Source: Geosiphon pyriformis uo1 (Eukaryota > Fungi > Glomeromycota). Taken from it: a stretch of DNA of 64,000 nucleotides. The position numbers were made by a program, and so were the translations under genes. Location: positions 496,617 through 560,616 of the forward strand of contig JAAOMT010000176.1 in assembly GCA_016748015.1 (NCBI GenBank), read 5' to 3'. Each line of letters starts with the position of its first letter. The stretch's first letter is position 1. A model generated the notes under the pieces. It was not told where the DNA came from. It was given only the letters and a program-made list of their open reading frames with translations, and searched no databases. Shown in pieces: positions 6,328 through 54,224 of the stretch.

Positions 6328-6794
6328 AAGTTATTGAAAAATTAGAGATAGCATTGGGCAATACATTAATAATAGAAGAAATAGAAATAAGTGAATTAAC
6401 ACCAGACACATTTAGCAACTTGAAAACAAAATTTCCAATTAATTACTGTTATTATCAACTAGGAAAGCACTTGAACATACAAACATTATACTCAAAAGAC
6501 TTAACTAGAGTGTTTGACAAAACAACTATCCAACTATTAGAACCTTTCATTGGAAAAACCAACATTACATTCCATTCAAAAACAGTTTACAGAATTTTCA
6601 AAGCATTTGAAAACTGTCACAAATTATTGTTGGACCCAACCATGAACATAATAACAACCAACAGTATTGGACAACTTACCAACTCGCAATTTCAAGAATT
6701 ACAACAACAAATTAATAACACAGTATTGAACCACTATAGTAACTTAGAATTTAATGAAGAAATTAACTTCGATTTCGACGGAGCTCAATCTTGA
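6328..6794 (+). CDS. ORF3 of family A (unknown function), 3' part
   Basis: Near-identical to 33895-34335 and homologous to family B ORF3 (FPxNYCY..LGxHxNIQxLY). Confidence 0.75.
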
Positions 6795-16528: not shown

Positions 16529-16582
16529 TTGACAAAAGAATATATAAGAACATGGTTAATACAACAGAAAAGATCAAAAAAA

Positions 16583-17212
16583 ATGAAAATTATGAACAAT
16601 ATCTATTCATTAGCCCAACAAAATTTTCAATTAATCCAACACCAGAAGATAGAAATTACAATCAATCAACAAATCATTCGTTACAAAAATACAGTAAAGA
16701 TACCACAAAACAAAGCACAGAAAAGACTTGAAAATGTTGTTAACAAGATCATAACCAAAATAAAATTGGCCATAAAAGAACAACAAATAGTCAGATTACA
16801 CCAAGAACTTATCAGAAAAACTTGGACTTGGTGGACACAACAATTTCCAAAAAATTATTGTTATTTTTACTTGGGACAACACGTGAATATCCAGAACTTA
16901 TATATAGATAAAACAAAGCGGTTATTCGACACAACAATACTACAACAACTAGAACATTTTGTGGGGAAAAACAACTTATCCACATAAGCTCGAGCTATAT
17001 ACTGAATACACACAGCATTTTAGGATTGACCAGAAATCCTACTCAACAAAGCAATGGATACGGTTACCAGTAATCAATTGGAAAAAATCATTAATGCTCA
17101 ATTTGAAGAATTACAGACTCAAATAACACAAGTAATTCTCGAAAATGAAATTCAGAAAATACTTCAAGAAAGAGAATTAAAGGAATTAGATTTTAACGGA
17201 ACTCAATATTAA
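16583..17212 (+). pseudogene. ORF3 of family B (209 aa, unknown function)
   Basis: One frame with point stops, ending DFNGTQY* at the PPT. Same 630-nt length in copy 2. Confidence 0.8.
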
Positions 17213-17225
17213 AAAGAGGGAATAA

Positions 17226-25850: not shown

Positions 25851-27399
25851 ACACTTTTTGGGAATTTGTAAAGGTAAAAGAGAAAGAAGTTTCAAAATTA
25901 TTATTCTTATAAAAAAACATAAAAAGTTTTTGGATTTTATTTACCCAAATTTTTGAAACAAGCTTTGAAAAAAAATCTATTGTTTATTTCTATAAATATT
26001 TTTTTAAATGTTATATATAACAAAAACTTTAACTGTATTTTAATAAAAGCAGTAAATATACTTTTATTTATCAATACTTTTAAATTAGAAAAATATTGTA
26101 TCAATAAAAACTAGAACTTGAAGCTACTAATCTTATTCCTAAAGTTATATAAAAACAAATACACCATAAATTTAAGACAATAGCTGAACCAATAAATACA
26201 CAATACAAACTTAAAACAGCTTTTAAACTTTACAACTTATTTAATACTTGCAAAAATATTCTATAAAACTTAATATTTTAACTAATAAAAATTCAATATA
26301 TTAACAAGTTTACAGAATTAAAATTTCAATAATTTTTAGACCAAATTACTTTAATAATACTAGATTATTATCTAAATACTATAGATAATATTTGAATTTT
26401 AATAAAGCTTAGTTTTAAAAAAGAAATTATATTATTAATAAAATTTAGTTAATAATTAACATAAAATTATTTTTATAATTTTTATTTTTAATTAGCATAT
26501 ATTATTATTAATTTAATTATTACTTATTATTTAATCAAATTTTCAAATATTATTATTCAATTAATAACCCAATTTATATAAATACAAATATGATGATCAA
26601 ATTATATAATACTTTAAACTCTGTAATATTTAAAAATTTACCAAATTTATAAAATTTTGTAAAATAATTGAATAATTCACTAAAATAATTTGTAATTTAT
26701 AGAAACAACTTATAGTTTACCAAAATATATCTTTTGTTTATTAAAATAATAACAAAGAGAAAAATGCAAATTCAAAATTTATTATTATAACAAATTGTAT
26801 AAAAGAAAAGTTTTTTTCTTCAAAAAAATATATTTTAGCAAAAAATAATAATTTTATCTTAGAATTATCTTTCTTAAAACAAGTTTCTTTATATAAATTA
26901 ATAAATTATCAAATATTTCAAAATTATAATTCAATTTAATTAACTTACAAATTAAAATTCTTTAAATTTCAATTAATATTTTAAAATTAAATAGTTACCA
27001 ATTTTAGTAATTTATTAATAATCTTAAGTCTAAACAGAAAATAATTTTTTTAATAAAATTTCTTTTTTTTATATTTTTATATTTTTTATTATAATCATTA
27101 AAATAGCTTATAAACAAGATTTCTGTAAAAAAATTGACTTTTACAACAAAGTAACTACATATTTTAGTAAGCTTTTAAACAAGTATTTTCTGAATAAAAT
27201 TTGACTTTTATCATAAAATAACTATATAAATAACTGATATAAAATTACTTATTTTATTTATAAATTTAGCTATTTAAATTATAAGAGATAATTTGAAGAT
27301 AAATTTAGTTATTAGAAGTTTAATTATTTCTAATAATCAAAAATTAACAACAAAACAATATTAACAACATTTAAAAAAAAAGACCAAAAATTTTTAGTA

Positions 27400-29500
27400 A
27401 TAATAATAAAAACTAAATTTTTAGACTTTTTATGTTATTTAACAATATTATTCTGCTTAGTTAAATTGTTTATATCTTTAATATTATATATAACAAACTT
27501 CCAAACAAATTTAATTATTGAAGTATAAAAAATATCAAAAAATTTAAGCCAAAATACAACTAATTTAACTTTACTAAAATAAAATTAACTAAAATCTTTA
27601 GCACAATTATTTTTGATTTTATGCTTTTTATCTTAATGGTTAAGATTTTTAAACTACTTATATCCAAAACTAAAGCTTTTAAAATGTCTATTATAAAAAA
27701 AAAGACAGTTTATATAAGATGTTTATAACCAAGTCTGAATTTAAATTTATAACAAAAACTAGTGCTTTGTTATAAAAAAAGAAATAGTTGCTAAAACATA
27801 AAAACTCAAGTTAAAACCATTTAACTTGTAAAAAATACTAGACATTTAATCTTATCAAAAGTTTTATAAACTATTTCAAAGATGTCAAATAAGTATTAAC
27901 AGAAATAACTAAATTTAATAGCAGATTTTTATTAACAAAAAAAAAAATACCAGAAAATAAAAAATTATCTTGAAAATTATTATAAACATTAACTAGAATA
28001 ACAACTAGAAAAATTATTTGCACTCAGAATTTATTATTAAAAGTTACAAGTTATAAAATAAAAATTTTTTTTTTTGGCATTAAAATGAGTTAACTAAAAG
28101 CAATCTTTATTTAAAATAAACTTTTTATAGACTTTTTTTAAAGTAAAACTAATTGTATTAATAACATTATATTTAAAAATTAAGTGTTTAAATCACTTAT
28201 TCTTTTTATAATGAACCAATTCTAATTTGGTCTAAAATAATTTTATCTTACTAAAAACAAATTTTATACAAAAAGCCAATTCTAAAATTTTTTTTGATTT
28301 AAGCTAATTATAATACAATATATTCTATTATCAGTTTTAAATAAGTAATTAATTATACAAGTTTTTTTATTACTTTTTTTTAATAAAGTATTAAGATTAT
28401 AAACAGTTGTTTTTACAGACAAAATAAACAAAAGCACTTTAAACTAATTTTTAAATATTTAAATATTATAATCTCTTATAATTTTAGCTATATACATTGA
28501 ATTTTTTTAATTAAAAAAGATTATTTAAATGCCAATTAATCTGCTTAACTTAATACAGTAAATTTCATTACAGTCTTCTGTCATAGTCTAATTAACTGCA
28601 ATTAAATTAATATTATCTAATTATATTTAGCAACTATAATAATAATCATCTTTTTTAACATATTTATAAAAAAATTTTTATTTATTACAGTTTAATTTAA
28701 GCAAAATTTTTGTTTGTTAAGATTGTTGTTTATTATAATGTTTTTTTTTTTAGCCAATAAAACAGTTTTTTTATGTTTTTTTTTAATATAAACATAAATC
28801 TAATAATTTTTTCAAATTTTGAAAAAGTGGCTCTTTTAAAATCATTAATTAATAAAAATAATTTCCTAATTACGTGTTTTTGTCATTATTGATTTGTCTT
28901 TTATTATTAAAAAATTAATGTTTAAAGCAAAAAATTTCTTAACAGTTATTTTTACTTGAGTTTTGATAATCTTGGGATTTATCTATTTTCTGTTCAAAAA
29001 GATTAAAAGATAAAAAGAAAAAAAAAACCTTATTATTTTTAATATTGTAACTAAAAGAACCAATTAGTAAACCAATTACAGCACCAGTATTAATTTGCTT
29101 AGTCTTAAGAATATTTATTTTAAAATCTAACCATTTTTTATTTTTACTATTTGTTTTATAGTTTGTATTAAAACCTAAAAAAATTACTAAAAAAGTATTA
29201 TTATTTGTATCTATTTTAGTAAACTAATTAACAATATATTTTAATCTATTAAAATCCAAATGTGTCTTATTATTTAAATGTTTTATATTATTAAAGAAAG
29301 TTTTTTGTTTCTAAACCAAGTTTTTACTAATAGAATTTAATGCCAAAACTTTGATTAATCTCTTTTTAGCAATAATATTACTTATAATAACAGCCAGTTT
29401 AATAAGAAAAAAAATTGTTTTTAAGAAATAATAAATATAAAAACAAAAAAAAACAGAAAAAAACTTTTCTTAAAAATTTTGACTCTTTTTTTGGAAATTT
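27400..29500 (-). mobile_element. Hypermutated LINE relic (ORF1 and start of ORF2)
   Basis: 27430-27525 aligns by eye with the ORF1/ORF2 junction at 55440-55535, and 28920-28990 with 25430-25490, with pervasive C>T/G>A. Ends approximate. Confidence 0.7.
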
Positions 29501-29569
29501 GGAATAAAAAAAAAATGTTTTTTTTAAATTATTACAATAAAAATATTGAAAATCTATTAGTATTATTTA

Positions 29570-30800
29570 TTAAATAAAACTGTTATTTATTAACTAAATC
29601 TATTGAAAAAATAATTTCTAATTAAAATTATTTATGTTATTATTAATTAATAAAAACTTTATTGTAAAATTAGAAAAAATGTTAAAAAACCATTAATATT
29701 TTATGTTTTTAGATTAAAAAAATACTTTAAACAATTACAAAAATAATATTAAAAAAACTTTAATAGCAATAGATAAATTTTAGATTAACTTATAAAAAAA
29801 ATATATAAAATACACAATAATAATTAGAATTTAAGAAATAATTTATATTATAATATTAACAAAAAACTTTTATTATAATATAAGTATTATTATATTATTA
29901 AAATTAAAAAACTTATAAAAATTAATCATAATAAAATCAAAAATATTGATAATTAATTTAATAAATAATTTATATTATTAAAATTAAAAAACTTATAAAA
30001 ATTAATCATAATAAAATCAAAAATATTGATAATTAATATATCAAAAAAATACTCTTATAATATTTAATAAATTCTATAAAAAAAATCAAAAAAATAATAA
30101 TTAATAATAATTTATTGCTAAAAAAAAACCAAAGTAATAACAAAAATTTTTAATTTTACTGTTATTAAATTTTGTTATGCTTTTTATTTATAATACTAAA
30201 ATAACTTTAATTATTAAAAAAGTGTTATTTAATTGAAAATATTTTTATATATAACATTAATACTAAAATAAATTATTATATAAAAAAAAATGATATAATA
30301 TAAAACTTAAATTATATAAAATTTATTATAATATTTAACAAAAAAAGCAATAACAATAACTGTATATATTGTTTAAATTTATTACAAAATTGAATAATAT
30401 ACTAATAAAATTTATTTAATATTTATAAAAAATTCTAAAAATTATGTTAATAAAGTCAAAAATTTTTAGAAACTAGTTACCAAAAAATTAGTAAAAATTA
30501 AAAATACTTGTCTAAATATCAAAAAAAACTGTTATATAATTAGTAAAAAAAACAATGTATTATTTGTTAAAAAACAAATATTATCATTTTTTATCAGAAA
30601 ATAAAATACAAATTTTATTAAAAATATATTATTATTTATATTAATTTTATAAATACCAAAAATTTTTAATTATATTAAAAAATTTAAACAATATAATTAA
30701 AAAAAATATTAATTACAAAAATTATTTTTTTATCCAAAATTTAAAACAGAATTTGAAAATCATAAAAAAAAAAACTTATTAAAAAACCAAAAACAAAAAC
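29570..30800 (+). mobile_element. Hypermutated family A-related gypsy relic (3' half of LTR, PBS, 5' gag)
   Basis: 29571-30062 follows 7263-7684 (TATTATTTATTAAATAAAAC vs TATTATTTATTGAATGAAAC). 30063 onward follows the reverse complement of 41830-41100. Confidence 0.8.
29891..30037 (+). repeat. Local duplication (67-bp exact unit, 80-bp period) inside relic LTR
   Basis: TATATTATTAAAATTAAAAAACTTATAAAA...GATAATTAAT at 29891 and 29971. Confidence 0.9.
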
Positions 30801-33004
30801 AATTATAAAACTAATATAAAAACAAATAATTAGTTTAAAAACCAAAACACTTATAATTAAGAAAAAAAAACCTTTTTTTTTTTATTAATTTTATGAGTGA
30901 AGTCCAATCACTATCTAATACAATACAACTATCTAAAGTTCTAAATTAAATATGATTTATGCTCTTGCTACATGTAACCAGTCACTCAGCCAATCAAGGC
31001 TACACTATGTAACTATATTTACTGTAACTTCACCAACAGCACCAGTGAAAAACAAACGGCCAATACTTAGACCAAAGTTGATTGCATGACCCCTCTTAAT
31101 TTCTAGTAAATAAGCAACACTACCTGAAACCTTAGCAGAAAGACTCTAAATAATATTATATAAAGACCCATCTGCACACAATAACTCATGACACTTCATT
31201 TCAGCTCAAAGTTTTGAATTAGGCATCCAAATTTGCTTTCTATGGCCAACAATCACACTCTGAACAAACTTGACCAAATTAGATATTGTGAGCTTAGTAT
31301 CTGCAAAAGATGTTTTAGCATCTGTCAACCAATCTTCAAATACAAGATCCTTGCACAAAGTTGTGTAGAGACCATTATTAGAAACAAAAGAAACCAGAGA
31401 CTGCAAAACCACAGATAACAACAAGGTTGCCCCAATAAGAGATTTCCAATGAGAGAAATGCTCACCTAACAAGCTCTGACATGTCAAAAAGTCCAAGTGA
31501 CAAACAAAACTATGATCTGAAAAATCCACATCCCTGCAATATATACATAATACACTAGGATAATTTCAATTATACAAGTACTTTCTAATAGCTACAGGCA
31601 GCCTCCTGTGTAAAGCTTTCATTAAATATGTGCACAAACTGGCAGTGGTTCTGCTTGTATAATTTGCAGACATGTGAGAATCAGGGTGCCAGACTGAGGC
31701 AGTACAAATTCAATTTATGTTCCTGACCCGTGAAAGATCCACAATGCTTGAACCAAATCTAAATTTCTATTGAAAACATCTAATAGTATTATTTGTTAAT
31801 TTAATGAAGCGGCGTGCATTCCCAGAAATCACCTTACCATCTGCCATTAAGAAATTTTCTTTGATGTTTGCTGAAAGAACAAGTCCTGAGGATGTGGCTA
31901 GATTAGCCAAACAATCAGCGCACTCATTGCCTAATACACCAGAGTAACTTTTTACCTTTGTCCAGATGACAGAAATGTTCTTATGTTTGACCAAATTGCT
32001 AATATGACAGTGTTCTATCTAGCACCTATTGCAAAAATCTGGAGCCACCAACCTCAATTCAGTCTGACAAGCATCTAAGAAAGCCTGACTGTTAGAGAAA
32101 ACCATAACATTCAAGGAAGCCGGAATGCACTTAAGAACCAGTACAACAGTCTGTATTTTAGCTAGGGTAGATGACAGCAAACCATGGATCTCCATACTTA
32201 CATGCAAACCTAGATCAGAAAAATAAGTGGCAGTTCTTTTAACAGCATCAGAGATACCAAAGTTTTTAACAAAACCATTAGTATAAACTGAGATCACTGG
32301 CAAAGAAGCATCTTTTAAACTAGAACAAACAAAACCAAAGTGTTCTATATTAGAAACATCCAACTTGGAAGGGGACTCAAAAACAGAAAAAGAATCTTTA
32401 ACCAAATCACTACTCTTGACAAAATCTGAAACCAGTATAAACCATATAAGAACTGGATTTCTGGGATCCAATTGTTTCTAATGGCAAAAATTCTTCCAAA
32501 TAAAACACTCTCCATGACTGTTCAACAACTGGTCTGCAAAAATGATCTCAAAACACTTCAGTGATTTGTAAATCTGGAGATACATTGCCTGGCCCAAAAT
32601 ATCCAGAACGGAAAAACCTCATTTAAGACGAAAAACATTGGGCAAACTATTAGCTAAAGAGATCTTATTACACAAAAAAACTTTAGTAACACCAGCCAGA
32701 AAATTGTTCATTGGATTGACCATCAGTTTAACAGGAAATTGAAAAAAGTTCTGAGGAACCCAGCCCAAAACCTGCAAATCCATTGACCTGTGCTTAAAAA
32801 GTTGACCCATTAACCTACTATCATTAGCAAACTGTAACACTAATGAGACTTTTGCTTCTGTCTGAACTTGTTCAAAGAGCTTCAAATTGTAAAAAGAAAG
32901 ATAATGCACTGTCTCATTAGAAAAGTCTCTAGGCAAACTGGCTTAAGATTTCAATCTCTTTCTAATCATATGGTTTTATTTCTCACATGTGCTTCTATTG
33001 ACAA

Positions 33005-33881
33005 TGTTACGGAATGGTTTTCTTGTTATATTTAATTGCTGATATCCCATTTCAATTGCAATCAGTCTTTCGTGAGTTCCTCAATTCTATTTGTGTGATA
33101 ATGTCACTGTTATACTGAAGGCTTTCTTTTTACTGTTGTGATGTAAGTTATTCTTTGATTCTTGATTGTTGTGTGTGTTTATGTACTTCTTCTCAGAGGC
33201 TGAACTAAAATCTACCCACTGTTTGGGGTCTTCTCTGAGGCTATTCTTGCAATTGTCTGATGTGTTTCTCTAATCTAAAAACACAGAATGTTAATGGTCT
33301 TTTAGCGCTTTTCTAATTCTTACAATAAAGCTTTTATCAATTAGTAACAACGTGAATAATCTTAATCAAGGATTATTCTTCCAAGGGATTCAGTTGATAA
33401 ATAATAGTTTCATTCAATAATTAATACAAGTAAGTTTCTTAATACTTTGGGTTGTGATAGTTCAGTTTTAAATATTTTTTTTCATTTCTTTTTGATTTTA
33501 AAAGTTTTTTGGGATATTTAATTTGAAAGTATGATTTAAAGTGGAGTTTGTTGAATAAAATTGGATCTATTGCTTGATAAGTTATGATTTTTATTACTTG
33601 ATTAATTATTTCCCAATATTAAAACTACTGTATATATACATGTTTGTAGTTCTATGAGAAAACACATTGTAATACTTTCTTTTTGATATTTCAACCTGGT
33701 GTTTGCTGCTATCACCAGTTGGTGTTGGCTGCTATTGTGAACTGGTGCTTGCCACTATTGTGAGATGGTATTTGCTACTATGTTAATCATTACCTTTCTA
33801 AGATCATTACTGTGCTATATTATGATTGAATAGTTTGTATTATTTTTATGATTCTTTTTGCTAAATTCTTAAACTGTAACA
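33005..33881 (-). repeat. 3' LTR, family A copy 2 (877 bp)
   Basis: TGTTAC...GTAACA termini; PPT at 33882-33896. Confidence 0.95.
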
Positions 33882-33894
33882 TTATCCCCTTCTT

Positions 33895-34560
33895 TCAAGA
33901 TTGAGCTCCATTAAAATCAAAGTTAATTTTTTCATTAAATTCTAAGTTACTATAGTGGTTCAATACTGTGTTATTAATTTGTTGTTGTAATTCTTGAAAT
34001 TGCGAGTTGGTAAGTCGTCCAATATTGTTGGTTGTTATTATGTTCATGGTTGGGTCCAACAATAATTTGTGACAGTTTTCAAATGCTTTGAAAATTCTGT
34101 AAACTGTTTTTGAATGGAATGTAGTGTTGGTTTTTCCAATAAAAGGTTCTAATAGTTGGATAGTTGTTTTGTCAAACACTCTAGTTGAGTCTTTTGAGTA
34201 TAATGTTTGTATGTTCAAGTGCTTTCCTAGTTGATAATAACAGTAATTAATTGGAAATTTTGTTTTCAAGTTGCTAAATGTGTCTGGTGTTAATTCACTT
34301 ATTTTTATTTCTTTGATTATTAATGTATTGCCCAATGCTATCTTTAATTTTTCAATAACTTTGCTAATAAATTTGTTGTTATATTTGGCAATATTATATG
34401 GTTCGAAATTATGTTCTTTTCTTGTTTTTGGATTTTCTATTGTTCTTTTTATGTATGTTATCTTGGAGCTATTAACTGTGATTTCCAGATCGGATTTTAA
34501 TTGTTGTAAGCTTTCAACTAATTGTTGAGTTATATTGTTGATGTTTTCTAGAATAAGTAT
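33895..34560 (-). CDS. ORF3 of family A (~221 aa, uninterrupted; unknown function)
   Basis: Frame open from the integrase stop (34648-34650) to 33895. ATA at 34560 aligns with the family B ATG (ILILENI vs MEITDNI). Confidence 0.75.
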   Translation of the reverse strand: MLILENINNITQQLVESLQQLKSDLEITVNSSKITYIKRTIENPKTRKEHNFEPYNIAKYNNKFISKVIEKLKIALGNTLIIKEIKISELTPDTFSNLKTKFPINYCYYQLGKHLNIQTLYSKDSTRVFDKTTIQLLEPFIGKTNTTFHSKTVYRIFKAFENCHKLLLDPTMNIITTNNIGRLTNSQFQELQQQINNTVLNHYSNLEFNEKINFDFNGAQS

Positions 34561-34647
34561 TATTGTTTTAATTTTGACTGCTATTTTGGAATCTTTTGCA
34601 TGCGTTTTTATGGTTGTTAAATCATTTTTGCCGTGATCTAAGATTAA

Positions 34648-36039
34648 TTATCTTTTTGAATAATGTTCAATTAAAACTATTGGTTCTAAATCTCGTGGAA
34701 TTTGTTCTGGTAGAATTAAAGGTAATTGTGTTCCAATTCTGGGTGTTTTTGTTGTTATTACTGGTTTACTGTAATAGAATTTCAGCCGGTTACCATGTGC
34801 TGCTTTTCTTAATATTTTATCATCTAGTCTTAGCTTGTATGCTCCATTTCCAAGTATTTCGTGAATATAAAATGGTCTATTCCACTTGTGATCAAATTTT
34901 CCACTCCACTGTTTTTCCATTTTTGTATGATGCAACAATACTTTATCTCCAATTTTGTAGCTAATTATATTATCTGGTAACTGGTTATCATGTCTCACTT
35001 TTTGTTGTTCTTGTGATTGTTCTTGTGATTGTTCAATATTTTGTGCTGCTTTTCTTCTTTTGTTTTCTAAAGTTCCCATTAATTCGTATGTTCTTCTAAG
35101 TAGTGTTTCCTAGAATGTTGCTTCCGTGATAGTGTCACTTGGATAAGTTGGGATAGTAAGTTCAACTGGTAATGTGGCTTTTCTTCTATAAACTAGTTCA
35201 AACAGTGTGAATTGTGTAGTATCTTGTTTTACTGTTCTATATGCTAGTAGTACTGCTGGTATGAACAAATCCCATTTTTTTTCATGTTTGTTACTAATTT
35301 TCGCCAGTGATTCGCATAATGTGTGATTAAATCTTTCAACTAATCTATTTGTTTGAGGGTAGTATGGTGATGACAGTGGTCGTTTGATTCCAAATTTTTG
35401 GCTAAGTTCTTTTAAGGTGCTGTTTACAAAGTGTGTGCTCTAATCTGATAGCAATTCTTGTGGACATCCATGTTGGTAAATTAAGTTTTCATGTACAAAT
35501 TGAACTATGGAAATAGCATCAGCTGTTTTAATAGCTCTAGCTTCTGGCCATTTGGTGAGATAGTCCATGGCTACTGCAATATAATGGTTGTTTCTTGTTG
35601 TTATTGGTAAGAGTCCAACTAAATTAATTCCAATTCTGTCAAATGGCTGTTCAACTTTTATTGGTCTTAATAATTCCGTTGTTTTTGCTCCTCCTCTTTG
35701 TTGGCATGGGTCACAATTTTTTATGTATTGGATTCTGTCTGAACTCATTTTTGGCCAATAGTAATGGCTAGTTACACGTTGGATGGTTGCTGTTTTTCCA
35801 AAGTGGCCTAAATGAATATCTGAGTGCATGTTAAATAAGATAGTTTCTTTTTCATCCATGGTTATAACTCTTAATAAATTATCTGGATTTTGTCAATTCT
35901 GGTAATAAAGTATGTGATTTTGGATAAAATAGTGTTTTGCTAATTTTTGGAGCTTAATTAGCTCTTTTACTGGCATTTCTTCATCTATTTGTAGTGTTTC
36001 CAAGTATTGGCTGAGGTTTTTGTAAAGGTGGTTGTTTAT
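34648..36039 (-). pseudogene. DDE integrase, separate ORF (~463 aa)
   Basis: ORFs 35440-35859 and 34648-35079 share one frame; HHCC region, core, GPF-like WNRPF. Confidence 0.9.
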
Positions 36040-36237
36040 TGTTGTTGTGGCAGGTGGGTTGGTAATTTTTATGTGTGTCTCATTCTTGACAAACAGTCGG
36101 CATTAGCATTTTTGGTACCTTTTTTGTATTTGATAATATAATCATATGGTGCTAATGTTTGTGACCATCTGGCGTATTTTTCTTTTAGCACTTTCTTGTT
36201 ATTTAACCAGACCAGACCTCTATGATCTGTGGTAATC

Positions 36238-36256
36238 CTGTCTCTTATACACATCT
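36238..36256 (+). other. Nextera/Tn5 mosaic-end adapter (assembly artefact) separating a ~265-bp false duplication
   Basis: Exact CTGTCTCTTATACACATCT. 35972-36237 is repeated from 36257. Translates to the MCIRDR signature. Confidence 0.97.
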
Positions 36257-36353
36257 GGCATTTCTTCATCTATTTGTAGTGTTTCCAAGTATTGGCTGAG
36301 GTTTTTGTAAAGGTGGTTGTTTATTGTTGTTGTGGCAGGTGGGTTGGTAATTT

Positions 36354-39300
36354 TTATGTGTGTCTCATTCTTGACAAACAGTCGGCATTAGCATTTTTGG
36401 TACCTTTTTTGTATTTGATAATATAATCATATGGTGCTAATGTTTGTGACCATCTGGCGTATTTTTCTTTTAGCACTTTCTTGTTATTTAACCAGACCAG
36501 ACCTCTATAATCTGTCGTAATCTCAAAGGGTTGGTACCATAAATATGTGTCAAAGTGAACACAACTCCAGACTATTGCTAAGCATTCAAGTTCATGTGTT
36601 GCGTAGTTTTGTTCTGCCATACTGAGACTTCTGCTGGCATAAGCGATTACACGTTCTCTTCCATTATCATCTTTTTGTGACAGAATGGCTCCAAGTCCAG
36701 TTCCAGAGGCATCTGTGGCCAAACTGAATTTCTTGTTGAAATTCGGATAGATCATTATTGGTGATTCAATGAGCTTTTGTCTAAGGTACTCAAAAGCTTT
36801 TTGTTGTGCTTTAGTCTATTCAAACTTCACATTTTTAGATAGTAGGTAATTAAGGGGTTTGGCAATGTTTGAAAAGTTTTCTACAAAGCGGCGGTAGTAA
36901 GATGCGAGTCCTAAAAAGCTTCTAACTTCTAAAACGTTTTGAGGTACTGGAAAATTTTTCACTTTGTCTATTTTTGATGGATCTGGTTTTATTCCATCTT
37001 TTCCAACTATGTGTCCTAAAAATGCTAGCTCATTTTTCCCAAAGAAACATTTTTCTAGATTTAGTTTAAGTTCAGCGTGTCTTAATCTCTCAAAAACTTG
37101 TTGTAAATGTTGGAGATAATCCGTGAATTTTAACAAGAAAACATTTGTATCATCCAAGTAGACAACAATGAATTGCCACAGGATTCCAGAGTAAATTACG
37201 TCCATTAGTCTTTGGAATGTTGCGGGAGCGTTTGTTAATCCAAATGGCATTACATTGAACTCATAATTGCCATTTTGTGTTGTGAATGCTGTTTTATGCC
37301 TGTCCTTTGGGTCCATTTCCACTTGCCAGTACCCACTGGTCAAGTCCAGTATAGAAAACCATTTTGCTCCTCCAAAAATGTCGAAAATTTTGTCAATTAA
37401 CAGTATTGGGTATGAGTCTTTGGTTGTTTTGCTGTTTAGTTTGTGATAGTCGACGCAAAATCTAATTTTTCCGTTCTTTTTTNNNNNNNNNNNNNNNNNN
37501 NNAAGTGAGTTCACAGTAGAGGGCAATTTCTGGGAAATTTAGAATTTTTTGTGGTGTTGATGCATTTTCTAGCTCTGTTCCGAGGTATCCAATGATGGTA
37601 TCTTCCAGAATGTAGACGGGTTCTTCTGTGGTGTTTGCAATAGGAATTTTTATCCATTGAGCTTTATCAGCTGGAATAAAAAGGTTAGTAAGTCCTATAA
37701 GAAACTGTTGGCAAGTTTCTGGGTAGGGCTCAAATATTAGGTCTTTTTCTTTAATTGTTTTTTTTATTCTTATTTCTGATTTTCCATATGGTAGGAGCAT
37801 GATGGACCACTTATTTTTAATTACTTCGCCTTTTTCCTCTATTGTTTCAGTGAAATTCACTTCAATTCCTTTTCCTGTTGATCCGAAACCAAAAGTTTCT
37901 CTCGTTGTTTGTGACAATTCCTCATGATTTTCCACTGGCACAAATTTCCCAATTTTTACCAATGGTAGGAAAATTGCTTGTACAATCTTTTCCTTAGATT
38001 TAATGGTATAAGGCTTTTCTGAATTGTTCTGTAGCAAAACCATCAAATTTCCAGTGTATCCGGAGTCAATTACTCCTCCTTGAACACTTATTCTTTTTTT
38101 CGCAAGACTTGATTGTAATGCTATTTGAACCATTATTCCTGGCGGAATTTCAACCACTATTTTTAGGTTGATTTTGGTGATGCTCCTGGGTGGTAACATT
38201 GTGGATTGGTCTTCTGGATAATGTAGATCAAATCTGGTGTCGGTTGGATGGGCTCTTTCGGGTATTATTCCTAAGTGCCCATTGTCAAAGTATCGGATGT
38301 CGGTCACCTGTTCTAGGTCAGTATAGGCTACAAATTTTTCTGACTCGGGACCGTCAGATAAGTCTTGTTGATTTATTGATTGATTTTGAGACTGCTGATT
38401 CTCAATTTCCATTTTTCTTTCTAAGTTCTTTTTGTCTTGACACTCTTCACAGCACTGATTTTGGCATGGAATGAGACAGTTTTTGCAGAAGTAAGTGTTG
38501 ATTTAGGCGAGGTATTGTTCTTGCTCTTGTCGAGTGAGTCATAGTTGTTGGTAATAGTCCTGGAATTCGTCCACTGGGTCAAACATGTTGTAGCTGGCGA
38601 CTTTATCGGCTACTTTGGCTGACTCTTTCCAACGTCGTATTTCTTCAGCGGTTCCTCCTCTTACTTTGGCTTGTGCGGTGTTATACAACTTGTCCTTGTT
38701 GTGTGGGTAGTGCTGTAGTCTTTTTAACGCTCTGTTGAACACTGCTTCGAATGGCGTTCCTCCTCTTACCCAGTCACAGATGAGGATCGTGTATTGGCAA
38801 GTTGCGTCACACGTTTCTCCTCTGTCTAGTAAGTCGTTCCAGTTGTACCCTCTTGGTAACAGTTCTCCACAAGTGAGACATGGTTCTTCATCCCATTTTC
38901 TGTGTCTTTCTGGGTAACTATATTTTTCTTTGTTACAACAGTTATAATAGTAGTGGGTGGGGTTTCTTGGGTCTTTGTCTGGTGCACTGCACGTAGTCAT
39001 AGATGAGAGTTTCTTCTTGCAAACCGAGCATTCTAGCTTTGGTCTGTGTTGCTAGTGGTTTCTTTGTGAACTTACCTGGTTCCATTCAGATCTTTCTTCG
39101 CTGGTCCACATTGGTATGGCTGGTAGTCCTGTTCTTTGGTCATTAGCCCAAGAGAGCTAATAGATTTCGATGGCTGGTAGTGTTGGATTTTCTTCAAATT
39201 TGAAGGTAGGTCTTTGGTTGGCGCTGGGTTTTTAGAAGTGGCCACAGGTGGCTGGAATTTTGGCCTGGTGGCCATTATAATTGATCAGAAGCTCTTGGGT

Positions 39301-41748
39301 GGTCCAGTCTAGAGTGGCGTTGGCTTTTGTTAGCCAGTCATTCTCTACTAACGCTTGATATTGTGTAGCGTCCATTACTAATACTTTTGTAGGTATTACT
39401 ATGCCATTAATTTCGAAAGAGAATGAGTCAATTTCGCCATGAGGCAGCTTTGTACTTCCATCAGCTGTTATAATTTGGGACGTTGCAGCACGATCAACTT
39501 TGAAACCCAGTTGGTTTACTAGTTGAAGCGTTATGATGCTTCCAGCGGATCCGCTGTCTAAGATAAGTTTGATTGGAGTATTGTTTACAGTGGCTTCCGT
39601 ATATATAGCAGTGATTGGGCATTTTTTGTCCAATGCTGCTCCACTGAACATAGCCTCATTTTCCTCTAATTCAAAAGGAAAAATAGCTGCGAGGCTGCTA
39701 TCTTTGGTGGCAACTGCTGGTGGTATTGTCTGGCTCAATTTGAAGGAATTCTTGGTTCTGTTTATGTTTCTACCATTATTGTTTCGGATGATCAGATTTT
39801 CTGGTATATTAAGATAAGTTTGTTGATAATTTTGGTAGTTTGGATTGGTTTGCTGATTGGTTCCAGCACGGTTTGGATTCCTCTGGACCAACGTGTTCTG
39901 GTTCCACATGGGCTGATTTCAGGCCTCGGGACGCCAATTTGGGTTGGCTATCATGGGCTGTTGCTGGTAAGCTCCTTGATTTTAATATGTGGTGGGATAT
40001 TGGCATAGTATTGGCGTGTACTGGTTTCTAGGCATTTGGGGTGGCGCGTAGTAATTATTTTCGCATGCTTCCTGCATCATTCGCATTTGACATTGACTAA
40101 TCAAATGTCCTACACATTTGCAAAAATGGCAGGCGCACATTTCTGTTCTGAATTTCTGGTGCGATGAGCGATTATTTTGACTGTTGCTGACTTCCTGGCT
40201 GCGTCTTTGGGGTGGTTGGTATGTATTTTTTCTCGGATCTGGGATGAGGTAACTTTCTATTTTCTTAAAGAGTTCCTTCCCTAATCGCGTTACTCTTTTC
40301 TCTAATGTTTCTGTCTTATTTTCCTCCATTACCATGTTAACCATTTAACTATGGTTAGCTTCTTTCTCAGCCGATTCAAGGGCTCTGGTGAGCGTAACGG
40401 CTTCTGGTAAGGAATTAGGGTGGGCAGAGCGTACTCTTCCTAAAATGCTGCTTTTTAATCCTCTAATAAACTGATTTAAAACCTGAGGATCAGTGTAGTA
40501 TCCTTGTTCAATCACTTCAATCTGACGGCGAATTCAATTGAATCGAGCAAGGTATTGGATAACAGTTTCACCAGTATTTTGCTTGATAGTATTGAATTCG
40601 TTCTGTAGTTGGATTACGGCGTTTGGATCACTAAAATACTCCAGAAGTGCATTTTTAAATTTGGCGAAGCTCGTGGGTTTTGTTTCCAGGCTTTGATACC
40701 ACAAGTCGGCTGTGCCTTTCAGGAAGAAAGGTAATGTTTGAATTGCTCTTTGGTCGTTCCAGTTATTTGCCTGGATGGCTTTTTGTGCTTCTCTGAGCCA
40801 TGTGTGCACATCTGTTTCTTCTTTCTCTCCTGAGAAATCTGTTAGTCTTGTAATGTATGGTGTGGTCATTTCATTGCCGTTTTCTGCTGGTGGGTTTATT
40901 GGTCTAAGAGGAAGTGGAATGATATTTCCTTGAGTGTTTCTAAAAGTGGCTTCCTTTATATCCAGTTCTTTCTCTTGATTACGAGTTTCTTGGTTTCTGG
41001 ACTGGCTGCTTGTTTCAGTGACTGGTCTTGTGATTGTTTTTTCGCTGGTCTCTTTTTCGGATTCCGATTCAGACTCCTCTTCACGGTTTGCAAACCCCGT
41101 TCTAAATTTTGGCTGAAAAAGAGGGTTTTGGAATAGTGATGAATATCCTCCTGTAATTGGTATGTCTTCCCAGTTACATTGTTTAATTTTATCAGTATAA
41201 CTAGGAGTTCTTGGCATTTGTGGAGTTAATGTTGATGATGATGCAGCTCCTAATGGAATTTGTATTTTATTTTCTGGTGAAAAATGGTATGATTTATCTT
41301 CTGGTGAATAAATACGTTGTTTTTTTATTGATTGAGTGACAGTTTTCTTTGGTGTTTGAGCTGGTGTTCCTAGTTTTTGCTGGTTACTTTTCTGATTAGT
41401 TTCTAAATTTTCTTTGGTTTTGTTGGCACGTTCCCTAGTGTTTCCTGTGGATATTGGAAAATTTTCATTGGCGTATTGCTCAATTTCTCGATGGATTTTG
41501 ACAATAGTTGCAGCTATTACTGTTACTTTTTTTGTAGTGTATTGTGATAATTCTCTATACAATCTAAGTTTTGCGTCATGTGGTTCTTCTTCTTTTCTTA
41601 TATGATAATTTATTCTGGCATTTATATAATAAATAAGAGCAGATTCTGCTGGACAACACCCTTCTGGTAATCCAAGATCACTTTGATTTTGTGTGTAAAT
41701 AGCACGGCAGAATTCAAGAACAGTAAGATTAGGGGTTTTTGTCACCAC
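36354..41748 (-). pseudogene. Gag-protease-Cys-rich-dUTPase-RT-RNase H polyprotein, family A copy 2
   Basis: LILDSGSAG protease; dUTPase ~37873-38290 (GGVIDSGYTG, FGFGSTG); RT YLDD; a 20-N gap at 37483-37502 replaces ~330 bp. Confidence 0.93.
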
Positions 41749-41811
41749 TTTTGTCTCTTCCTTTTTAGCAATGAATTATTGCTAATTATTATTTTCTTTT
41801 TGATTTTCTTT

Positions 41812-41828
41812 CTTCGTAGGGTTCACCA
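41812..41828 (-). promoter_or_regulatory. Primer binding site (family A)
   Basis: TGGTGAACCCTACGAAG, 2 nt after the 5' LTR. Confidence 0.85.
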
Positions 41829-41830
41829 AA

Positions 41831-42706
41831 TGTTACGGGATGGTTTTTTTGTTATATTTAATTGCTGATATCCCACTTTAATTGCAATCAGTCTTTTGTG
41901 AGTTCCTCAATTCTATTTGTGTGATAATGTCACTGTTATATTGAAGGCTTTCTTTTTACTGTTGTGATGTAAGTTATTCTTTAATTTTTGATTGTTGTGT
42001 GTGTTTATGTACTTCTTCTCAGAGGCTGAACTGAAATTTACCCACTGTCTGGGGTCTTCTCTGAGGCTATCCTTGCAATTGCCTGATGTGTTTCTCTAAT
42101 CTAGAAACACAGAATGTTAATGGTCTTTTAGCGCTTTTCTAATTCTCACAATAAAGCTTTTATCAATTAGTAACAACGTGAATAATCTTGATCAAGGATT
42201 ATTCTTCCAAGAGATTCAGTTGATGAATAATAGTTTCATTCAATAATTAATACAAGTAAGTTTCTTAATACTTTGGATTGTAATAGTTCAGTTTTAAATA
42301 TTTTTTTCATTTCTTTTTGATTTTAAAAGTTTCTTGGGATATTTAATTTGAAAATATGATTTAAAGTGGAGTTTGTTGGATAAAATTGGATCTATTGCTT
42401 GATAAGTTATGATTTTTATTACTTGATTAATTATTTCCCAATATTAAAACTACTGTATATATACATGTTTGTAGTTCTACGAGAAAACACATTGTAATAC
42501 TTTCTTTTTGATATTTCAATCTGGTGTTTGCTGCTATCACCAGTTGGTGTTGGCTGCTATTGTGAACTGGTGCTTGCCACTATTGCGAGATGGTGTTTGC
42601 TACTATGTTAATCATTACCTTTCTAAGATCATTACTGTGCTATATTATGATTGAATAGTTTGTATTATTTTTATGATTCTTTTTGCTAAATTCTTAAACC
42701 ATAACA
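41831..42706 (-). repeat. 5' LTR, family A copy 2 (876 bp)
   Basis: Direct repeat of 33005-33881. Confidence 0.95.
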
Positions 42707-45004
42707 ACGAAGCTAAATTGAGTTCTATATCTTACTATGGGCTGTAAAACAGCTAATACCAAATAAGAAAATTGCTTGTCCATAATAGCTTTGCACAAAA
42801 CCATGGACAAGAAAAACTTGACATCTGAATTTGCCTTTTTCAAACTTGGACCAGAAAGACCTTTAGTTAACAGAAAAATACCTAGATACTGATGAGCTTT
42901 GCCAGCCTTTGTAATTGAAATTGGAGATCTGCTCACATTCAAGAAGGTGTTGCTAGCCCTTGGGTTAATAGGAATGGCTACTGTCTTCTCTATGTTAATT
43001 GTTATATCCATTAATTCAAAGAACTTACTAGCAATGTCTAAAATATTCTGTGTCATTGTGTGACAATTACCAATTCAAATGGTGTTATCCACGAAAGCAC
43101 CAGCAGCCAAATAAGAAGTCAAACCAGTGTTCGATTTAATTTTGCTCATTCTGGCCACAAATTTGGAATCAATCCAATACCCAAAAAATGACTCATGCTT
43201 TTTCATTTTGCACAACAAAGAATCATAAAAAATTCTCCACAAAAAAGGAGAAAAAACTTCTCCTTGGTCCAGACTATCATGAACTTTGTAACCTTTGGAT
43301 AAACCAAAGTTGGTCATGACTCTATTTATGTGGCCATTGTGAATATTACCAAAAAACTTGACAAACTTCTCACATATTTTGATTCTCTCCAGACTACTTC
43401 TCAAATGCAACTAGTCTACTGAATTATAAGCTTTGTGCATATTTTGAAGCACCAACCAGAGTTCCCTGTCTTTTTCCAGAGCATCTTTTACAACAAATCC
43501 TACAACAAAGATAGGAGACTATGTAAAAATGCTTTTCAACACCAAAAAATTGTCTCCATGCAGAATGTTGTGTATGCTGCAGGCCCTTGAAATGCAATCA
43601 AATAGAATCTTTAAAAAAATTTTCTTAGAGGTTTCAATGAAAGCAATAGGTCTGGTGTTTGTTAGGACTCCTTTCCACTCATAAAGTTTCGGAATTATAG
43701 ATACTTAGGCTTCTCTTCAGGCATCTGGAACAGATTCACATACTAAGCACAAGTTGAGCAGACACAAAAAAAGGACCAGAACAGACTTATCACAGTGTCT
43801 TCACATCTCATTAGAGATATCAGACAAACCAGCAGCTTTTCCATTAGAAAGATTCTTGACCACCAATGAAAACTCATCAAAATCTATTTGCTTCATCATG
43901 CCAGAAAACACATCATCATTGACATGATTGAAAGGAGAAAATTGTACTTGCCAACAGAAAAGCACAGAAGATTTGACTGCACATTCCCTGGTTCAATTTT
44001 CCATAATTCAATCCACCCTGCCCTTGACTAAATCAGGTTCTAAGACCAAATCTCCATTATCAACCAGATGATCCAAAGTGACTTTTCTGAAAGGCTTTTC
44101 CAACACACTTCTGATCATTTGATCTTTGTTGTTTATAAAAGCTTCCATGCACTTATCAATGGCTGCCCAGATCTGTGAATCCTTAGTAGCCTTAGATTCC
44201 AAATACTTGTGAGACCTATATAATTTCTTAAAACATGCTAGCAATTATTCAACCAACACTCTGTCATGACTATTGCCCAAAGAACTCTTGAACTCTACAG
44301 TTTGGTCAAAGTTCAAGTCAATCCATTTATTAACTAGAGCCTAAAATTTTTTCAGATTTTCTGATTTGTATGCATTCAAAATTTTTGTCATTAAGAGTTC
44401 TAGCTTGTAGAAGATGCTATAGTCTTGACCAATCCACAATTACTGGACCGTGTTTTTATGAGAGCAGCTTCTGTTGCAGAATGCACCATTTGACAGAGGA
44501 GTTTCCACATCCCATTGATATCACTTTTAGTGGTGTGGTATTCAAAATCACCAGCTGACTTTGAAGCAGCAGTCAATGATGCATCCCCAAACTTTTTCCA
44601 AATCTTACTACTAATACCACTAACTTTGTATTTCCATTTCTTTTTCATGATTTGTCTGTGTACCAAATTAAGCTGAGAATTGAGAAAGCCTCCTAAACCA
44701 ATGTCTACTGACATGACCAAGTGGTTAGAATCAAAAAACTCAGCCAAACAATAAACTTCTTGGTTAAAAGACAAGCTGCAAAGACTATTACTAACTAATA
44801 TAAAGTCTATGCACTTTTGAACACCTTCCAAATTGGACTATGTGAGAAGTTTGTGCAAAGAAAAACCATGTAAAGAATCAAACAAACCCAAATCCAGACA
44901 TTTCTTGAAGTTTGTACTGCAACCAGAATCATTTTCATTAAAGTCACCACCAAGAACAATAAATAAACTACTATTTAAAGTCTCAGTCATCATAGAATTG
45001 ATGA

Positions 45005-45858
45005 TGTTACAAATGACTATTTGGAATCTTGAGTCAAATAACACACTCATAACTTGGTGCTCAAAAGCTATTTCCATTGATAATGTTCTAAAAGTGTTGT
45101 ATCTGAAGGTGTTGATGGAGTCCTTTGTATAATAGACAGAGATTCAATAGTAATGATATTTGTGTGTTCAGTGGTTTCCTAATTTCTTTCTCAGCTTGGT
45201 GGCCAGATTTATTCTGGCAGTTATGCCCTTTTGGTAAGTTAACTGATAATATATATAAATCTACTCTTATTTCTGGGTTTTTTACCAGACTATCTATGAC
45301 ATTAATAACTCAGCGCTTTTAATTCTCAATTAATTAGTATGCATCACAAAATCAAAGAAAGATAAAAGAGAAAATAAGAAAATAAGCCAAAGCAATTTGC
45401 AAGTTAGTATCCCATTAATAGTCGTGATTAAGAGCTATTGTTTCAGTATGGTTAAGTATCAGTTACTATCAACATGAAGTGTTGATGGTGAAGAATGAAT
45501 TTGATATAGTGAATAATTATTTATTCTTTAGAATTGTGGTAATTAAGCTAAGAATTCTTCTTGTCAATTCTGTCTTTTCTACTTCTAATGCTACTGCTAT
45601 ATATACATATTTGAGATTCCTCAATTCCTCAATTCCTTGCAACAAAAATCCTGGAATTCCTGGAATCCTGCAATTCCTGATGAGAGGAATTCTGGAATTC
45701 TGGAATCCTGTGATTCCTTGTTGGAGAATTCTGAAATTCCTGGAATCCTGCAATTCCTCTGAGAGGAATCTTGGAATTTCACATTTACTACATCTACATC
45801 TGATTGGCTAATATCTACTGGCTAATAATACTATATTTTTTATATTCTATGAGTAACA
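45005..45858 (-). repeat. 3' LTR, family B copy 2 (854 bp)
   Basis: Direct repeat of 54287-55140; PPT adjacent at 45859-45873. Confidence 0.95.
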
Positions 45859-45871
45859 TTATTCTCTTCTT

Positions 45872-46501
45872 TTAATATTAAGCTTTGTCAAAATCTAATT
45901 CCTTTAATTCTTCTTCTTGAATTATTTCTTGAACTTCTTTTTCGAGTATTATTTGTGTTATTTTAGTTTGTAGTTCTTCAAATTGGGCATTGGTTATTTT
46001 TCCCAATTGATTACTCATAACTGTATTCATTGCTATATTGAGTAAGATTTTTGGTCAGTTTTGAAATCCCATATATAACTGGTAAATGGCTTGAGCTTGT
46101 GTGGTTAGATTGTTTTTTCCCACAAATTGTTCCAGTTGTCTCAGTATTGTTGTGTCGAATAACTATTTTGTTTTGTCAATGTACAAATTCTGGATATTTA
46201 CATGTTGTCCCAAGTGGAAATGACAATAGTTTTTCGGAAATTGTTGCGTTCACCAAGTCTAAGTTTCTCTGGTAAGTTCTTGGTATAATCTGACTATTTG
46301 TTGTTCTTTTATGGCCAATTTTATTTTGGTTATAATCTTGTCAACAACATTTTCAAGTCTTTTTTGTGCTTTGTTTTGTGGTAGCTTTGCCATATTTTTG
46401 TAACAAATGGTTTTTTGATTGATTGTAATTTTCATCTTCTGGTGTTGGATTAATTGAAAAATTTGTTGGGCTAATGAATGGATATTGTCCGTAATTTCCA
46501 T
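45872..46501 (-). pseudogene. ORF3 of family B copy 2 (209 aa)
   Basis: MEITDNIHSLAQQ...; same start, length and end as 16583-17212. Confidence 0.8.
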
Positions 46502-46555
46502 TTTTTTTGATCTCTTCTGTCACATTGACCATGTTTTTATATATTTTTTTATTGA

Positions 46556-47938: not shown

Positions 47939-48001
47939 CTTTTATTATATTTTTCGTTGGTATTGTTCTGGTTTTGTTATATTTTTGGGTTCAAAATGTT
48001 C

Positions 48002-54000: not shown

Positions 54001-54224
54001 GGTAGGTTGGTGTTTTGAATTAATTCCCTATAAAAAGTTTCCCTTGCTGATTCAGTATTCACTGGTGTTTCTAACAAAGAGAAAATTTTTTCATTGACGT
54101 AGAAATTGAAAGCTGATTCGGCAGATATATAATTGTGGTTTAATCTCAAGTATTGACAATAGTGTTGAAATAAGGATTTTGTGAATCCTAAATGGTTTGC
54201 TCCTATATTTTCTGATTCTGCCAC
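48002..54224 (-). pseudogene. Gag-protease-Cys-rich-dUTPase-RT-RNase H polyprotein, family B copy 2
   Basis: LILNSGSAG; CIDCGKK; dUTPase DAEFDL/RSSLAKK/GGIIDMGY/IAQAIF/RGIQGFG (~49835-50255); RT MPFGLTNA; RNase H ends LLQIRQI*. Confidence 0.9.

What the first reader, a model, noticed from the sequence alone, without database searches (positions are those of the whole stretch)
33895..34650. Conserved third ORF of unknown function between integrase and PPT
Seen: both families carry a ~210-220 aa ORF in the env position (6328-6794, 16583-17212, 33895-34560, 45872-46501). Shared motif: FPxNYCY(Y/F)xLGxHxNIQxLY...R(V/L)FDxTx(I/L)QxLExF(I/V)GKxN...QFxELQxQI...DF(D/N)GxQx*. The stop abuts the PPT. 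Protein-level conservation between otherwise diverged families implies selection. No obvious signal peptide or transmembrane helix, so it is not a typical Env, and it is not a chromodomain. Inference: an accessory factor for targeting, anti-silencing or movement in coenocytic hyphae.
Basis: partly seen in the sequence, partly recalled or inferred. Interest (0 to 1): 0.8.

Follow-up and report, generated by a model that had tools for sequence, protein, structure and literature searches.

The report
Conserved extra gene in fungal retrotransposons
Jumping genes of a fungus that is likely Geosiphon carry, where retroviruses keep their envelope gene, a conserved small gene under purifying selection; its protein has no membrane anchor and no recognisable relatives, and likely acts in the nucleus to help the element against the host's silencing.

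Summary
Confirmed, with corrections. Four dUTPase-bearing Ty3/gypsy elements (families A, B) carry a sense ORF3 of about 210-220 codons between integrase and PPT. A fifth, decayed copy of a third family lies at 25890-26446.

Selection: omega 0.20-0.26 (integrase 0.12-0.15); omega=1 is rejected (2dlnL about 73-94).

Range: seven lineages at 19-40% identity, five in Geosiphon pyriformis and two from unnamed assemblies. One of these (L001) shows RT-RH-IN, a 316-nt spacer, then ORF3 with its own ATG in another frame.

Protein: no membrane segment, no credible family match. AlphaFold gives a confident helical core (pLDDT 90) with no fold match (best Z 5.7). ParB-HTH and DUF1016 leads failed profile tests.

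Corrections: this copy's ATG has decayed to ATA; B copies hold 4-5 stops; the terminal GAQ motif largely reflects conserved DNA beside the PPT.

Function is inferred: likely a nuclear nucleic-acid-binding regulator (conserved basic helix-turn-helix-like unit; PY-NLS-like motif in 5 of 7 lineages), perhaps countering heavy C-to-T decay. Extra ORFs here are a known kind; this family appears undescribed. The scan noted similar ORFs in two other genomes.

The parts
33895..34563 (-). ORF3 of element A2 (222 codons plus stop; start codon decayed to ATA; no internal stop; the frame is open back to 34647)
34564..34647 (-). 84-nt spacer, in frame with pol and ORF3 and without a stop
34648..34650 (-). 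pol stop codon (TAA) after the integrase SH3-like tail; at the same aligned place in family B
34651..36045 (-). Integrase (H2C2 finger, core, SH3_Tf2-1-like tail; no chromodomain), with decay stops
36046..41775 (-). gag, protease, dUTPase, RT and RNase H of A2 (decayed; 268-nt tandem duplication at 35970-36522; 20 N at 37483-37502)
33882..33894 (-). Polypurine tract directly after the ORF3 stop; preceded by a DNA motif conserved with L001
33005..33881 (-). 3' LTR of A2
41831..42706 (-). 5' LTR of A2 (96.6% identical to the 3' LTR); PBS-like TGG at 41828; 4-bp target duplication TCGT/TTGT
6330..6794 (+). ORF3 of element A1 (3' 154 codons; 5' part lost in the N gap 6186-6327); 3' LTR 6808-7684
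16583..17212 (+). ORF3 of element B1 (7884-18192, target duplication CCAT); ATG kept, 4 internal stops
45872..46501 (-). ORF3 of element B2 (45005-55140, target duplication TCAT); ATG kept, 5 internal stops; in frame with pol
25890..26446 (+). Fifth ORF3 copy, third family (61% to P0038), frameshifted near 26022, cut on its left by a LINE-like element, in 15% GC decayed DNA

Best explanation
ORF3 is a conserved, selected accessory gene of a dUTPase-bearing Ty3/gypsy lineage, and it encodes a predicted soluble helical protein that likely enters the nucleus and likely binds the element's own DNA to keep it transcribed against host silencing. Shown: position, sense orientation, purifying selection, seven lineages, a conserved start-Met column, no membrane segment. 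Predicted: an N-terminal helix plus beta-hairpin, a disordered basic linker, and a compact seven-helix core. Inferred: translation as a separate protein (the route, internal promoter or spliced subgenomic RNA, is unknown); nuclear import by a PY-type signal in the linker; nucleic-acid binding by the helix / G-K-T-N turn / helix unit; family-specific action on its own LTR, working like the VANC proteins of plant DNA transposons. Odds: real gene 0.95, nuclear nucleic-acid binder about 0.45, this DNA-level regulator about 0.3.
For: Selection: omega 0.20-0.22 vs 0.12-0.15 for integrase; 2dlnL = 94 without kappa and about 73 with kappa scanned from 1.5 to 4; B1/B2 ungapped permutation P about 0.01. 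Independent ORF: L001 has a 316-nt spacer, another frame and a stop right before the ATG; Met at the first column in 6 of 7 lineage representatives. Soluble: highest 19-residue hydropathy 0.44-1.29 in 6 of 6 proteins. Folded core: pLDDT 89.8, pTM 0.83. Conserved polar and basic residues cluster at the turn and second helix (K143, N145 invariant, R155; basic also at 126, 127, 131, 151). An R/K/H-x2-5-PY motif in 5 of 7 lineages lies in the segment modelled at pLDDT under 50; the consensus is from the PMC2408616 abstract start. Host pressure: LTR pairs differ by 199 transitions and 1 transversion; CpG o/e is 0.25-0.47 in the elements vs 0.69 in the neighbouring host gene. ORF3 diverges faster than integrase.
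Against: No direct evidence of binding, localisation or expression. The HTH resemblance is below significance: Spo0J Z 5.3, rmsd 4.8, 94 aligned, tied with unrelated helical proteins, and the ParB profile score (11.8) equals block-shuffled controls (mean 11.9, max 18.3). Families B and E lack the PY motif. Two of six proteins are acidic overall (pI 5.4, 5.9). Most conserved columns are hydrophobic core positions. Heavy decay shows that host defence exists, not that ORF3 counters it. ESM recognition scores (1937, 2186) are under the tool's 2300 mark.
Confidence: 0.3

Rival explanations
1. ORF3 is a Rev/CERV-like RNA-binding factor that would bind the element's full-length RNA and get it out of the nucleus unspliced, or chaperone it for packaging.
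For: Same nuclear, basic features as the best reading. The host does splice this element's RNA at many sites, seen on the antisense strand. CERV of Cer1 is a precedent (PMC10309623, abstract and outline).
Against: No splicing of the sense RNA was seen. CERV comes from a spliced mRNA, and no sequence comparison with it was made. No export-signal pattern is kept in frame at the C-terminus, whose tail changes frame between lineages.
Confidence: 0.2
2. ORF3 works with the integrase, as a partner or, in families A and B, as a C-terminal extension made by stop-codon readthrough, and would tether integration to chromatin in place of a chromodomain.
For: In A2 and B2 ORF3 is in frame with pol behind a single pol stop. 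The spacer is open for 28 codons in A2 and 18 in B1. The integrase has no chromodomain. Readthrough into an env-like ORF is recalled for SIRE1 (search listing only).
Against: L001 has ORF3 in another frame, 316 nt downstream. The B2 spacer holds a stop, possibly from decay. A start Met is conserved. CpG-type 4-bp targets are described for Ginger1 transposases, so the integrase may set the target by itself.
Confidence: 0.15
3. ORF3 is a captured coat or nucleocapsid protein of a filamentous virus that would wrap the RNA for movement through hyphae.
For: ESM Atlas second hit for P0043 is a Closter_coat cluster at 0.93. An archaeal filamentous-virus coat chain (6v7b) appears at Z 5.2, rmsd 3.2, 70 aligned.
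Against: Only 156 of 256 features are shared, under the tool's 170 mark. The window protein did not return this hit. No Closter_coat Pfam match among the 25 of 27 families shown. The element already has a capsid-bearing Gag.
Confidence: 0.07
4. ORF3 has some other role (protein-interaction adaptor, RNAi suppressor, antagonist of a host restriction factor) that these data do not point to.
For: The fold has no match in three libraries, so no function is implied by homology. Non-envelope ORF3 types are diverse in rotifer elements (PMC5408684 abstract).
Against: No catalytic-looking invariant residues: the invariant columns over seven lineages are P, Y, N, F, L, mostly structural.
Confidence: 0.24
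5. ORF3 is a divergent Env, or is not a gene at all (a neutral passenger kept open by base composition).
For: It occupies the env position. The A-rich sense strand (40% A, 23% T) favours open frames. A2 vs A1 differences look neutral (P 0.58).
Against: No hydrophobic segment. Omega far below 1, and the annotated frame gives the lowest pN/pS of the six frames in 4 of 5 pairs. Seven lineages at 19-40% identity fold to one confident domain. A2 vs A1 is decay after insertion (14 differences).
Confidence: 0.04

Closest known systems
Sense additional ORFs (aORF-3S) between pol and the 3' LTR of plant LTR retrotransposons such as Athila and Bagy2 (PMC7264820, parts 1-2 of 3 read)
   Same: Sense ORF between pol and the 3' LTR, present in most copies and conserved.
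   Different: Fungal host; no transmembrane segment, which some of the plant env-like ORFs have; no Pfam match to any plant aORF domain; dUTPase in pol.
Fungal Gypsy elements with dUTPase between PR and RT (PosPlaTy3-5) and an 'add. ORF' of unknown function (PMC2864245, section 5 and passages read)
   Same: dUTPase placement, and the existence of unexplained extra ORFs in fungal Gypsy elements.
   Different: That survey covered Dikarya and one chytrid, no Glomeromycotina. The text read does not describe its added ORF; its figure and supplementary table were not seen, so homology is untested.
VANC anti-silencing proteins of Arabidopsis VANDAL DNA transposons (PMC5735166, PMC10398659; listing and abstract starts only)
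   Same: Proposed working analogy: a fast-evolving element-encoded protein that binds its own element and counters silencing.
   Different: DNA transposons of plants; no homology shown or tested; activity is demonstrated for VANC and only inferred here.
CERV of C. elegans Cer1 (PMC10309623, abstract and outline)
   Same: Non-Env accessory nuclear protein of an LTR retrotransposon.
   Different: Made from a spliced mRNA, shown to export genomic RNA; no homology tested.
Non-envelope ORF3 types of bdelloid rotifer LTR elements (PMC5408684, abstract and outline)
   Same: dUTPase-bearing LTR elements with a third ORF.
   Different: Those are fusion glycoproteins, GDSL esterases or DEDDy exonucleases; none of these matched here.

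Membership tests
Ty3/gypsy LTR retrotransposon | Paired LTRs TG...CA with a target-site duplication | tested here: met
   A2, B1, B2: LTR pairs 87-97% identical, 4-bp duplications (2 exact, 1 with one transition)
Ty3/gypsy LTR retrotransposon | Order gag-PR-RT-RH-IN | tested here: met
   dUTPase between PR and RT
Ty3/gypsy LTR retrotransposon | PBS after the 5' LTR and PPT before the 3' LTR | tested here: met
   TGG two bases after the 5' LTR in 3 of 3 full elements; 13-nt purine tract in 4 of 4. The priming tRNA was not identified.
Sense aORF (aORF-3S) | [quoted passage not shown] | tested here: met
   4 of 4 window elements with an integrase, plus L001; omega 0.20-0.26
Sense aORF (aORF-3S) | Expressed as a sense transcript or protein | tested here: inconclusive
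   One run of contigs only; the contig over ORF3 begins at an antisense splice acceptor
Env / env-like | Signal peptide and transmembrane helix | tested here: not met
   Highest 19-residue Kyte-Doolittle mean 0.44-1.29 in 6 of 6 proteins; no dedicated predictor was available
Env / env-like | Fusion-protein fold | tested here: inconclusive
   No match at E <= 0.001 in PDB or BFVD
Chromovirus | Chromodomain at the integrase C-terminus | tested here: not met
   Only SH3_Tf2-1 on the integrase tails of A1, A2 and L001; no family on ORF3
ParB/KorB helix-turn-helix domain | Profile similarity to HTH_ParB | tested here: not met
   hhalign against 27 ParB domains: probability 0.2%, score 11.8 vs 60 block shuffles mean 11.9
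ParB/KorB helix-turn-helix domain | Same fold | tested here: inconclusive
   Spo0J Z 5.3, rmsd 4.8, 94 aligned; ParB Z 4.3; KorB Z 3.7; tied with unrelated rows
DUF1016 N-terminal domain (YhcG) | Profile similarity | tested here: not met
   Pfam E 0.037 on 1 of 24 members; hhalign against 71 sequences, probability under 1%
Closterovirus coat protein | Sequence or fold similarity | tested here: inconclusive
   ESM feature hit 0.93 with 156 shared; not among the listed rows; no direct comparison
VANC-type anti-silencing factor | Sequence-specific binding to its own element and loss of silencing marks | not testable with these tools
   needs binding and reporter assays
Rev/CERV-type export factor | Needed for nuclear export of unspliced genomic RNA | not testable with these tools
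   needs cell assays; CERV sequence not compared

The most novel reading that the evidence does not exclude
ORF3 is a new-fold, family-specific counter-defence protein with which an LTR retrotransposon shields its own copies from methylation and RIP-like C-to-T mutation in an arbuscular-mycorrhizal-type fungus: a VANC-like arms race in fungi and in retroelements, which would help explain why LTR elements fill about 41% of the Geosiphon genome.
Probability: 0.15. Interest if true: 0.85.

Novelty: new variant of a known kind. Interest (0 to 1): 0.52.

Why it matters
Fungal LTR elements are usually described as gag-pol, some with a chromodomain. Here a whole lineage keeps a third gene across at least seven families, under selection nearly as strong as the integrase's, with a confidently predicted fold that matches nothing searched. 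G. pyriformis has 41.2% of its genome in LTR sequence (PMC11952901 passage). At least 90 annotated 'hypothetical proteins' retrieved here are pieces of this ORF, so naming it cleans up annotation. It also gives a small soluble protein with which to test how retroelements persist under strong C-to-T genome defence.

Tried and rejected
No host genome is held, so genome-wide copy number and linkage could not be counted.

Family scans: Pfam 0 families for P0001 and P0043 at E <= 1; PHROGs best E 0.0012 on 1 of 11 members; NCBIfam best 0.005; PDB sequences best E 0.7.

Fold searches: 0 matches at E <= 0.001 in PDB and BFVD; best Z 4.7 for the full model and 5.7 for the core. This shows neither a new fold nor a different one.

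DUF1016_N and ParB-HTH leads were tested by profile comparison and dropped. DUF3102 gave one locus in 36 genomes, too few for a profile, so it is untested.

Homodimer prediction: no answer (0.24 against a mark of 0.32; the alignment was not used).

Viral contigs: no relative of P0040 among 58 candidate stretches, none of the L001 integrase among 10. The longer-protein search gave 7 of 7989 candidates, all Geosiphon gene models.

Expression: no RNA holder listed; one run held 0.18 of the words; its contigs cannot show strand or level; no cover over B2's ORF3. I first read the contig over A2's ORF3 as ORF3 mRNA and dropped that, because it starts at an antisense acceptor.

P0048 (repeat protein, E 1.9e-4) matched no lineage representative and was left out.

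Literature: searches listed no paper describing this ORF. PMC3248453 passages have no ORF3 or dUTPase mention. Repbase, Dfam, GyDB and subscription journals, including the Geosiphon genome papers, were not searchable.

Full report
Setting. The window is a stack of nested transposons. The closest database proteins to ORF3 (88-95% identity for the top five) are annotated Geosiphon pyriformis hypothetical proteins; all 9 hits of 534 candidates carry that name. The host is therefore likely G. pyriformis; no genome is held to confirm it. Self-comparison and boundary reading give four LTR elements: A1 (window start to 7684, +), B1 (7884-18192, +), A2 (33005-42706, -) and B2 (45005-55140, -). A2, B1 and B2 have TG...CA LTR pairs, a PBS-like TGG and 4-bp target duplications. 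The domain order is gag, protease, dUTPase, RT, RNase H, integrase with an SH3-like tail and no chromodomain: Ty3/gypsy.

The observation. Its stop is followed by a 13-nt purine tract and the LTR in all four copies. None is intact. A2's start has decayed to ATA where sister proteins begin with Met; B1 and B2 carry 4 and 5 stops; A1 is cut by an N gap. A profile scan found a fifth copy at 25890-26446 (E 3e-33), 61% identical to a third Geosiphon family, frameshifted and cut by a LINE.

Selection. Between A and B the proteins are 35-38% identical with saturated synonymous sites. Codon models on five copies give omega 0.20-0.22 against 0.12-0.15 for the integrase. Fixing omega at 1 costs 47 log units without kappa and about 37 with the best of five kappa values. 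The four window copies alone give 0.255. Protein-guided alignment can bias this downward, so I also tested the ungapped B1/B2 pair: 51 residue differences against about 61 expected when the same base changes are scattered (P 0.007-0.012). The annotated frame has the lowest pN/pS of six frames in 4 of 5 pairs; the exception, A2 vs A1, has only 14 differences and looks neutral, as expected for decay after insertion.

Range and linkage. The full-library search gave 45 proteins at E <= 0.001. Of 20 looked up, 18 are Geosiphon, one is an unnamed ENA protein and one an unnamed JGI protein. A profile search gave 51 of 3411 candidates, 50 of them Geosiphon. Of 95 proteins held, 94 sort into seven lineages at 19-40% pairwise identity. 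Gene models join pol sequence upstream of ORF3 in 19 of 41 family E, 2 of 23 family B and 1 of 11 family A proteins, and in none of 11 D or 5 C; these are annotation fusions and show linkage only. The JGI protein's contig L001 holds RT, RNase H, integrase, a stop, a 316-nt AT-rich spacer, then an intact 230-codon ORF3 in another frame that reads through the PPT into the LTR. So the architecture recurs in a second, unnamed source, and there ORF3 cannot be a readthrough product. In A2 and B2 it is in frame with pol behind the pol stop, which keeps readthrough open for those families.

The protein. There is no hydrophobic segment and no credible family match in Pfam, PHROGs, NCBIfam or PDB sequences. 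AlphaFold on the intact JGI member with 24 rows gives pLDDT 78.7: an N-terminal helix and beta-hairpin, a disordered linker at 40-51, and a helical core. The core alone reaches pLDDT 89.8, pTM 0.83. Fold searches give nothing significant. The weak rows include several DNA-binding helical domains (Orc6, Spo0J, ParB, KorB, sigma F), but they tie with unrelated helical proteins. My profile tests of ParB (27 sequences) and DUF1016_N (71 sequences) scored at shuffle level. ESM Atlas returned for P0043 an unnamed 98-member Mucoromycota cluster (0.94, 176 shared features) and a closterovirus coat cluster (0.93, 156 shared); for the window protein only unnamed clusters. The Mucoromycota cluster is the best lead to wider relatives and could not be retrieved. 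Across seven lineages the conserved polar positions are the G-K-T-N turn and the Arg of the next helix, with further basic residues on the helix before. Five of seven have an R/K/H-x2-5-PY motif in the basic linker, the pattern given for PY nuclear localisation signals (PMC2408616, abstract start).

Mechanism. Shown: a real, selected, non-membrane accessory gene. Inferred: a nuclear protein that binds nucleic acid. I commit to binding of the element's own DNA to sustain transcription against silencing (0.3), because of the HTH-like arrangement, the faster, family-specific divergence, and the strong host pressure: LTR pairs differ by 199 transitions to 1 transversion and CpG is depleted. Rivals are a Rev/CERV-like RNA factor (0.2), an integrase partner or readthrough extension (0.15), a captured coat protein (0.07), another role (0.24), and Env or neutral (0.04). 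None of these was tested by experiment. Expression is unresolved: the single run holding this DNA shows spliced antisense contigs, and the contig over ORF3 starts at an antisense acceptor (33640, equal to 42465 in the other LTR), so it is not evidence for ORF3 mRNA.

Comparison with what is known. Sense extra ORFs between pol and the 3' LTR are a recognised class with mostly unknown function (PMC7264820, parts 1-2 of 3). Fungal Gypsy elements with dUTPase between PR and RT and an unexplained added ORF were reported in 2010 (PMC2864245, section 5 and passages); its figure and .DOC supplement were not seen and may bear on novelty. Rotifer ORF3 types (abstract), CERV (abstract) and VANC (listing and abstract starts) are analogies, not shown homologues. 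Ginger1 transposases make 4-bp CCGG/CCGT duplications (passages), which weakens the need for ORF3 in targeting. Searches listed no description of this ORF. Earlier scan notes report similar env-position ORFs in two other genomes; no sequence look-alike was indexed, and I did not test those notes.

Verdict. A new variant of a known kind: an apparently undescribed accessory protein family in the env position of Glomeromycotina-type gypsy elements, with a solid gene-level case and a speculative function. Interest 0.52.

Noticed in passing
window 33064-42465 (+), antisense to element A2: Contigs of run X1 skip 15 listed stretches. Of 14 scored, 8 are strict GT..AG on the + strand (3.4% at random, 0 on the - strand); most of the rest have GT(A/G)AG-like donors nearby. 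This points to a multi-exon spliced antisense RNA running from the 3' LTR through gag. One run only; kind guessed by the tool; coding potential not tested.
   Followed up: partly
LTR pairs of A2, B1, B2: 199 transitions to 1 transversion. C-to-T occurs in all contexts, with CpG the hottest (31 changed vs 8 unchanged), which looks like RIP-type or methylation-driven mutation in an early-diverging fungus.
   Followed up: partly
window 25900-31000: 14% GC stretch with CpG o/e 0.04, holding barely recognisable remains of LINE, LTR and ORF3 sequence: the end state of that decay.
   Followed up: partly
B1 8813-17225 vs B2: Mosaic: about 70% identity with about 10% transversions over gag and PR, 81-93% with few transversions over pol, 80% at the ORF3 3' half; recombination between subfamilies is likely.
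   Followed up: partly
window 33895-33909 (-), L001 3091-3105: A DNA motif with a GAGCTC palindrome lies just before the PPT in family A and L001 (decayed in B) and is read in different frames; likely a cis signal for plus-strand priming or 3' end function.
   Followed up: no
flanks of A2, B1, B2: 4-bp target duplications TCGT/TTGT, CCAT, TCAT fit a CpG-centred target with decay, as a sister note proposes.
   Followed up: partly
window 18900-25850 (-), 42713-43701, 55249-57379: LINE-like elements (gag-like ORF, endonuclease, RT, RNase H) into or beside which the LTR elements are nested.
   Followed up: no
window 60492-63971 (+): Host gene with SWIRM, ZZ, Myb/SANT and SWIRM-associated domains (SWI3/RSC8-type chromatin remodelling subunit; the name is recalled).
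   Followed up: no
window 35970-36522: 268-nt tandem duplication (99%) at the RNase H / integrase junction of A2; real or an assembly artefact.
   Followed up: no
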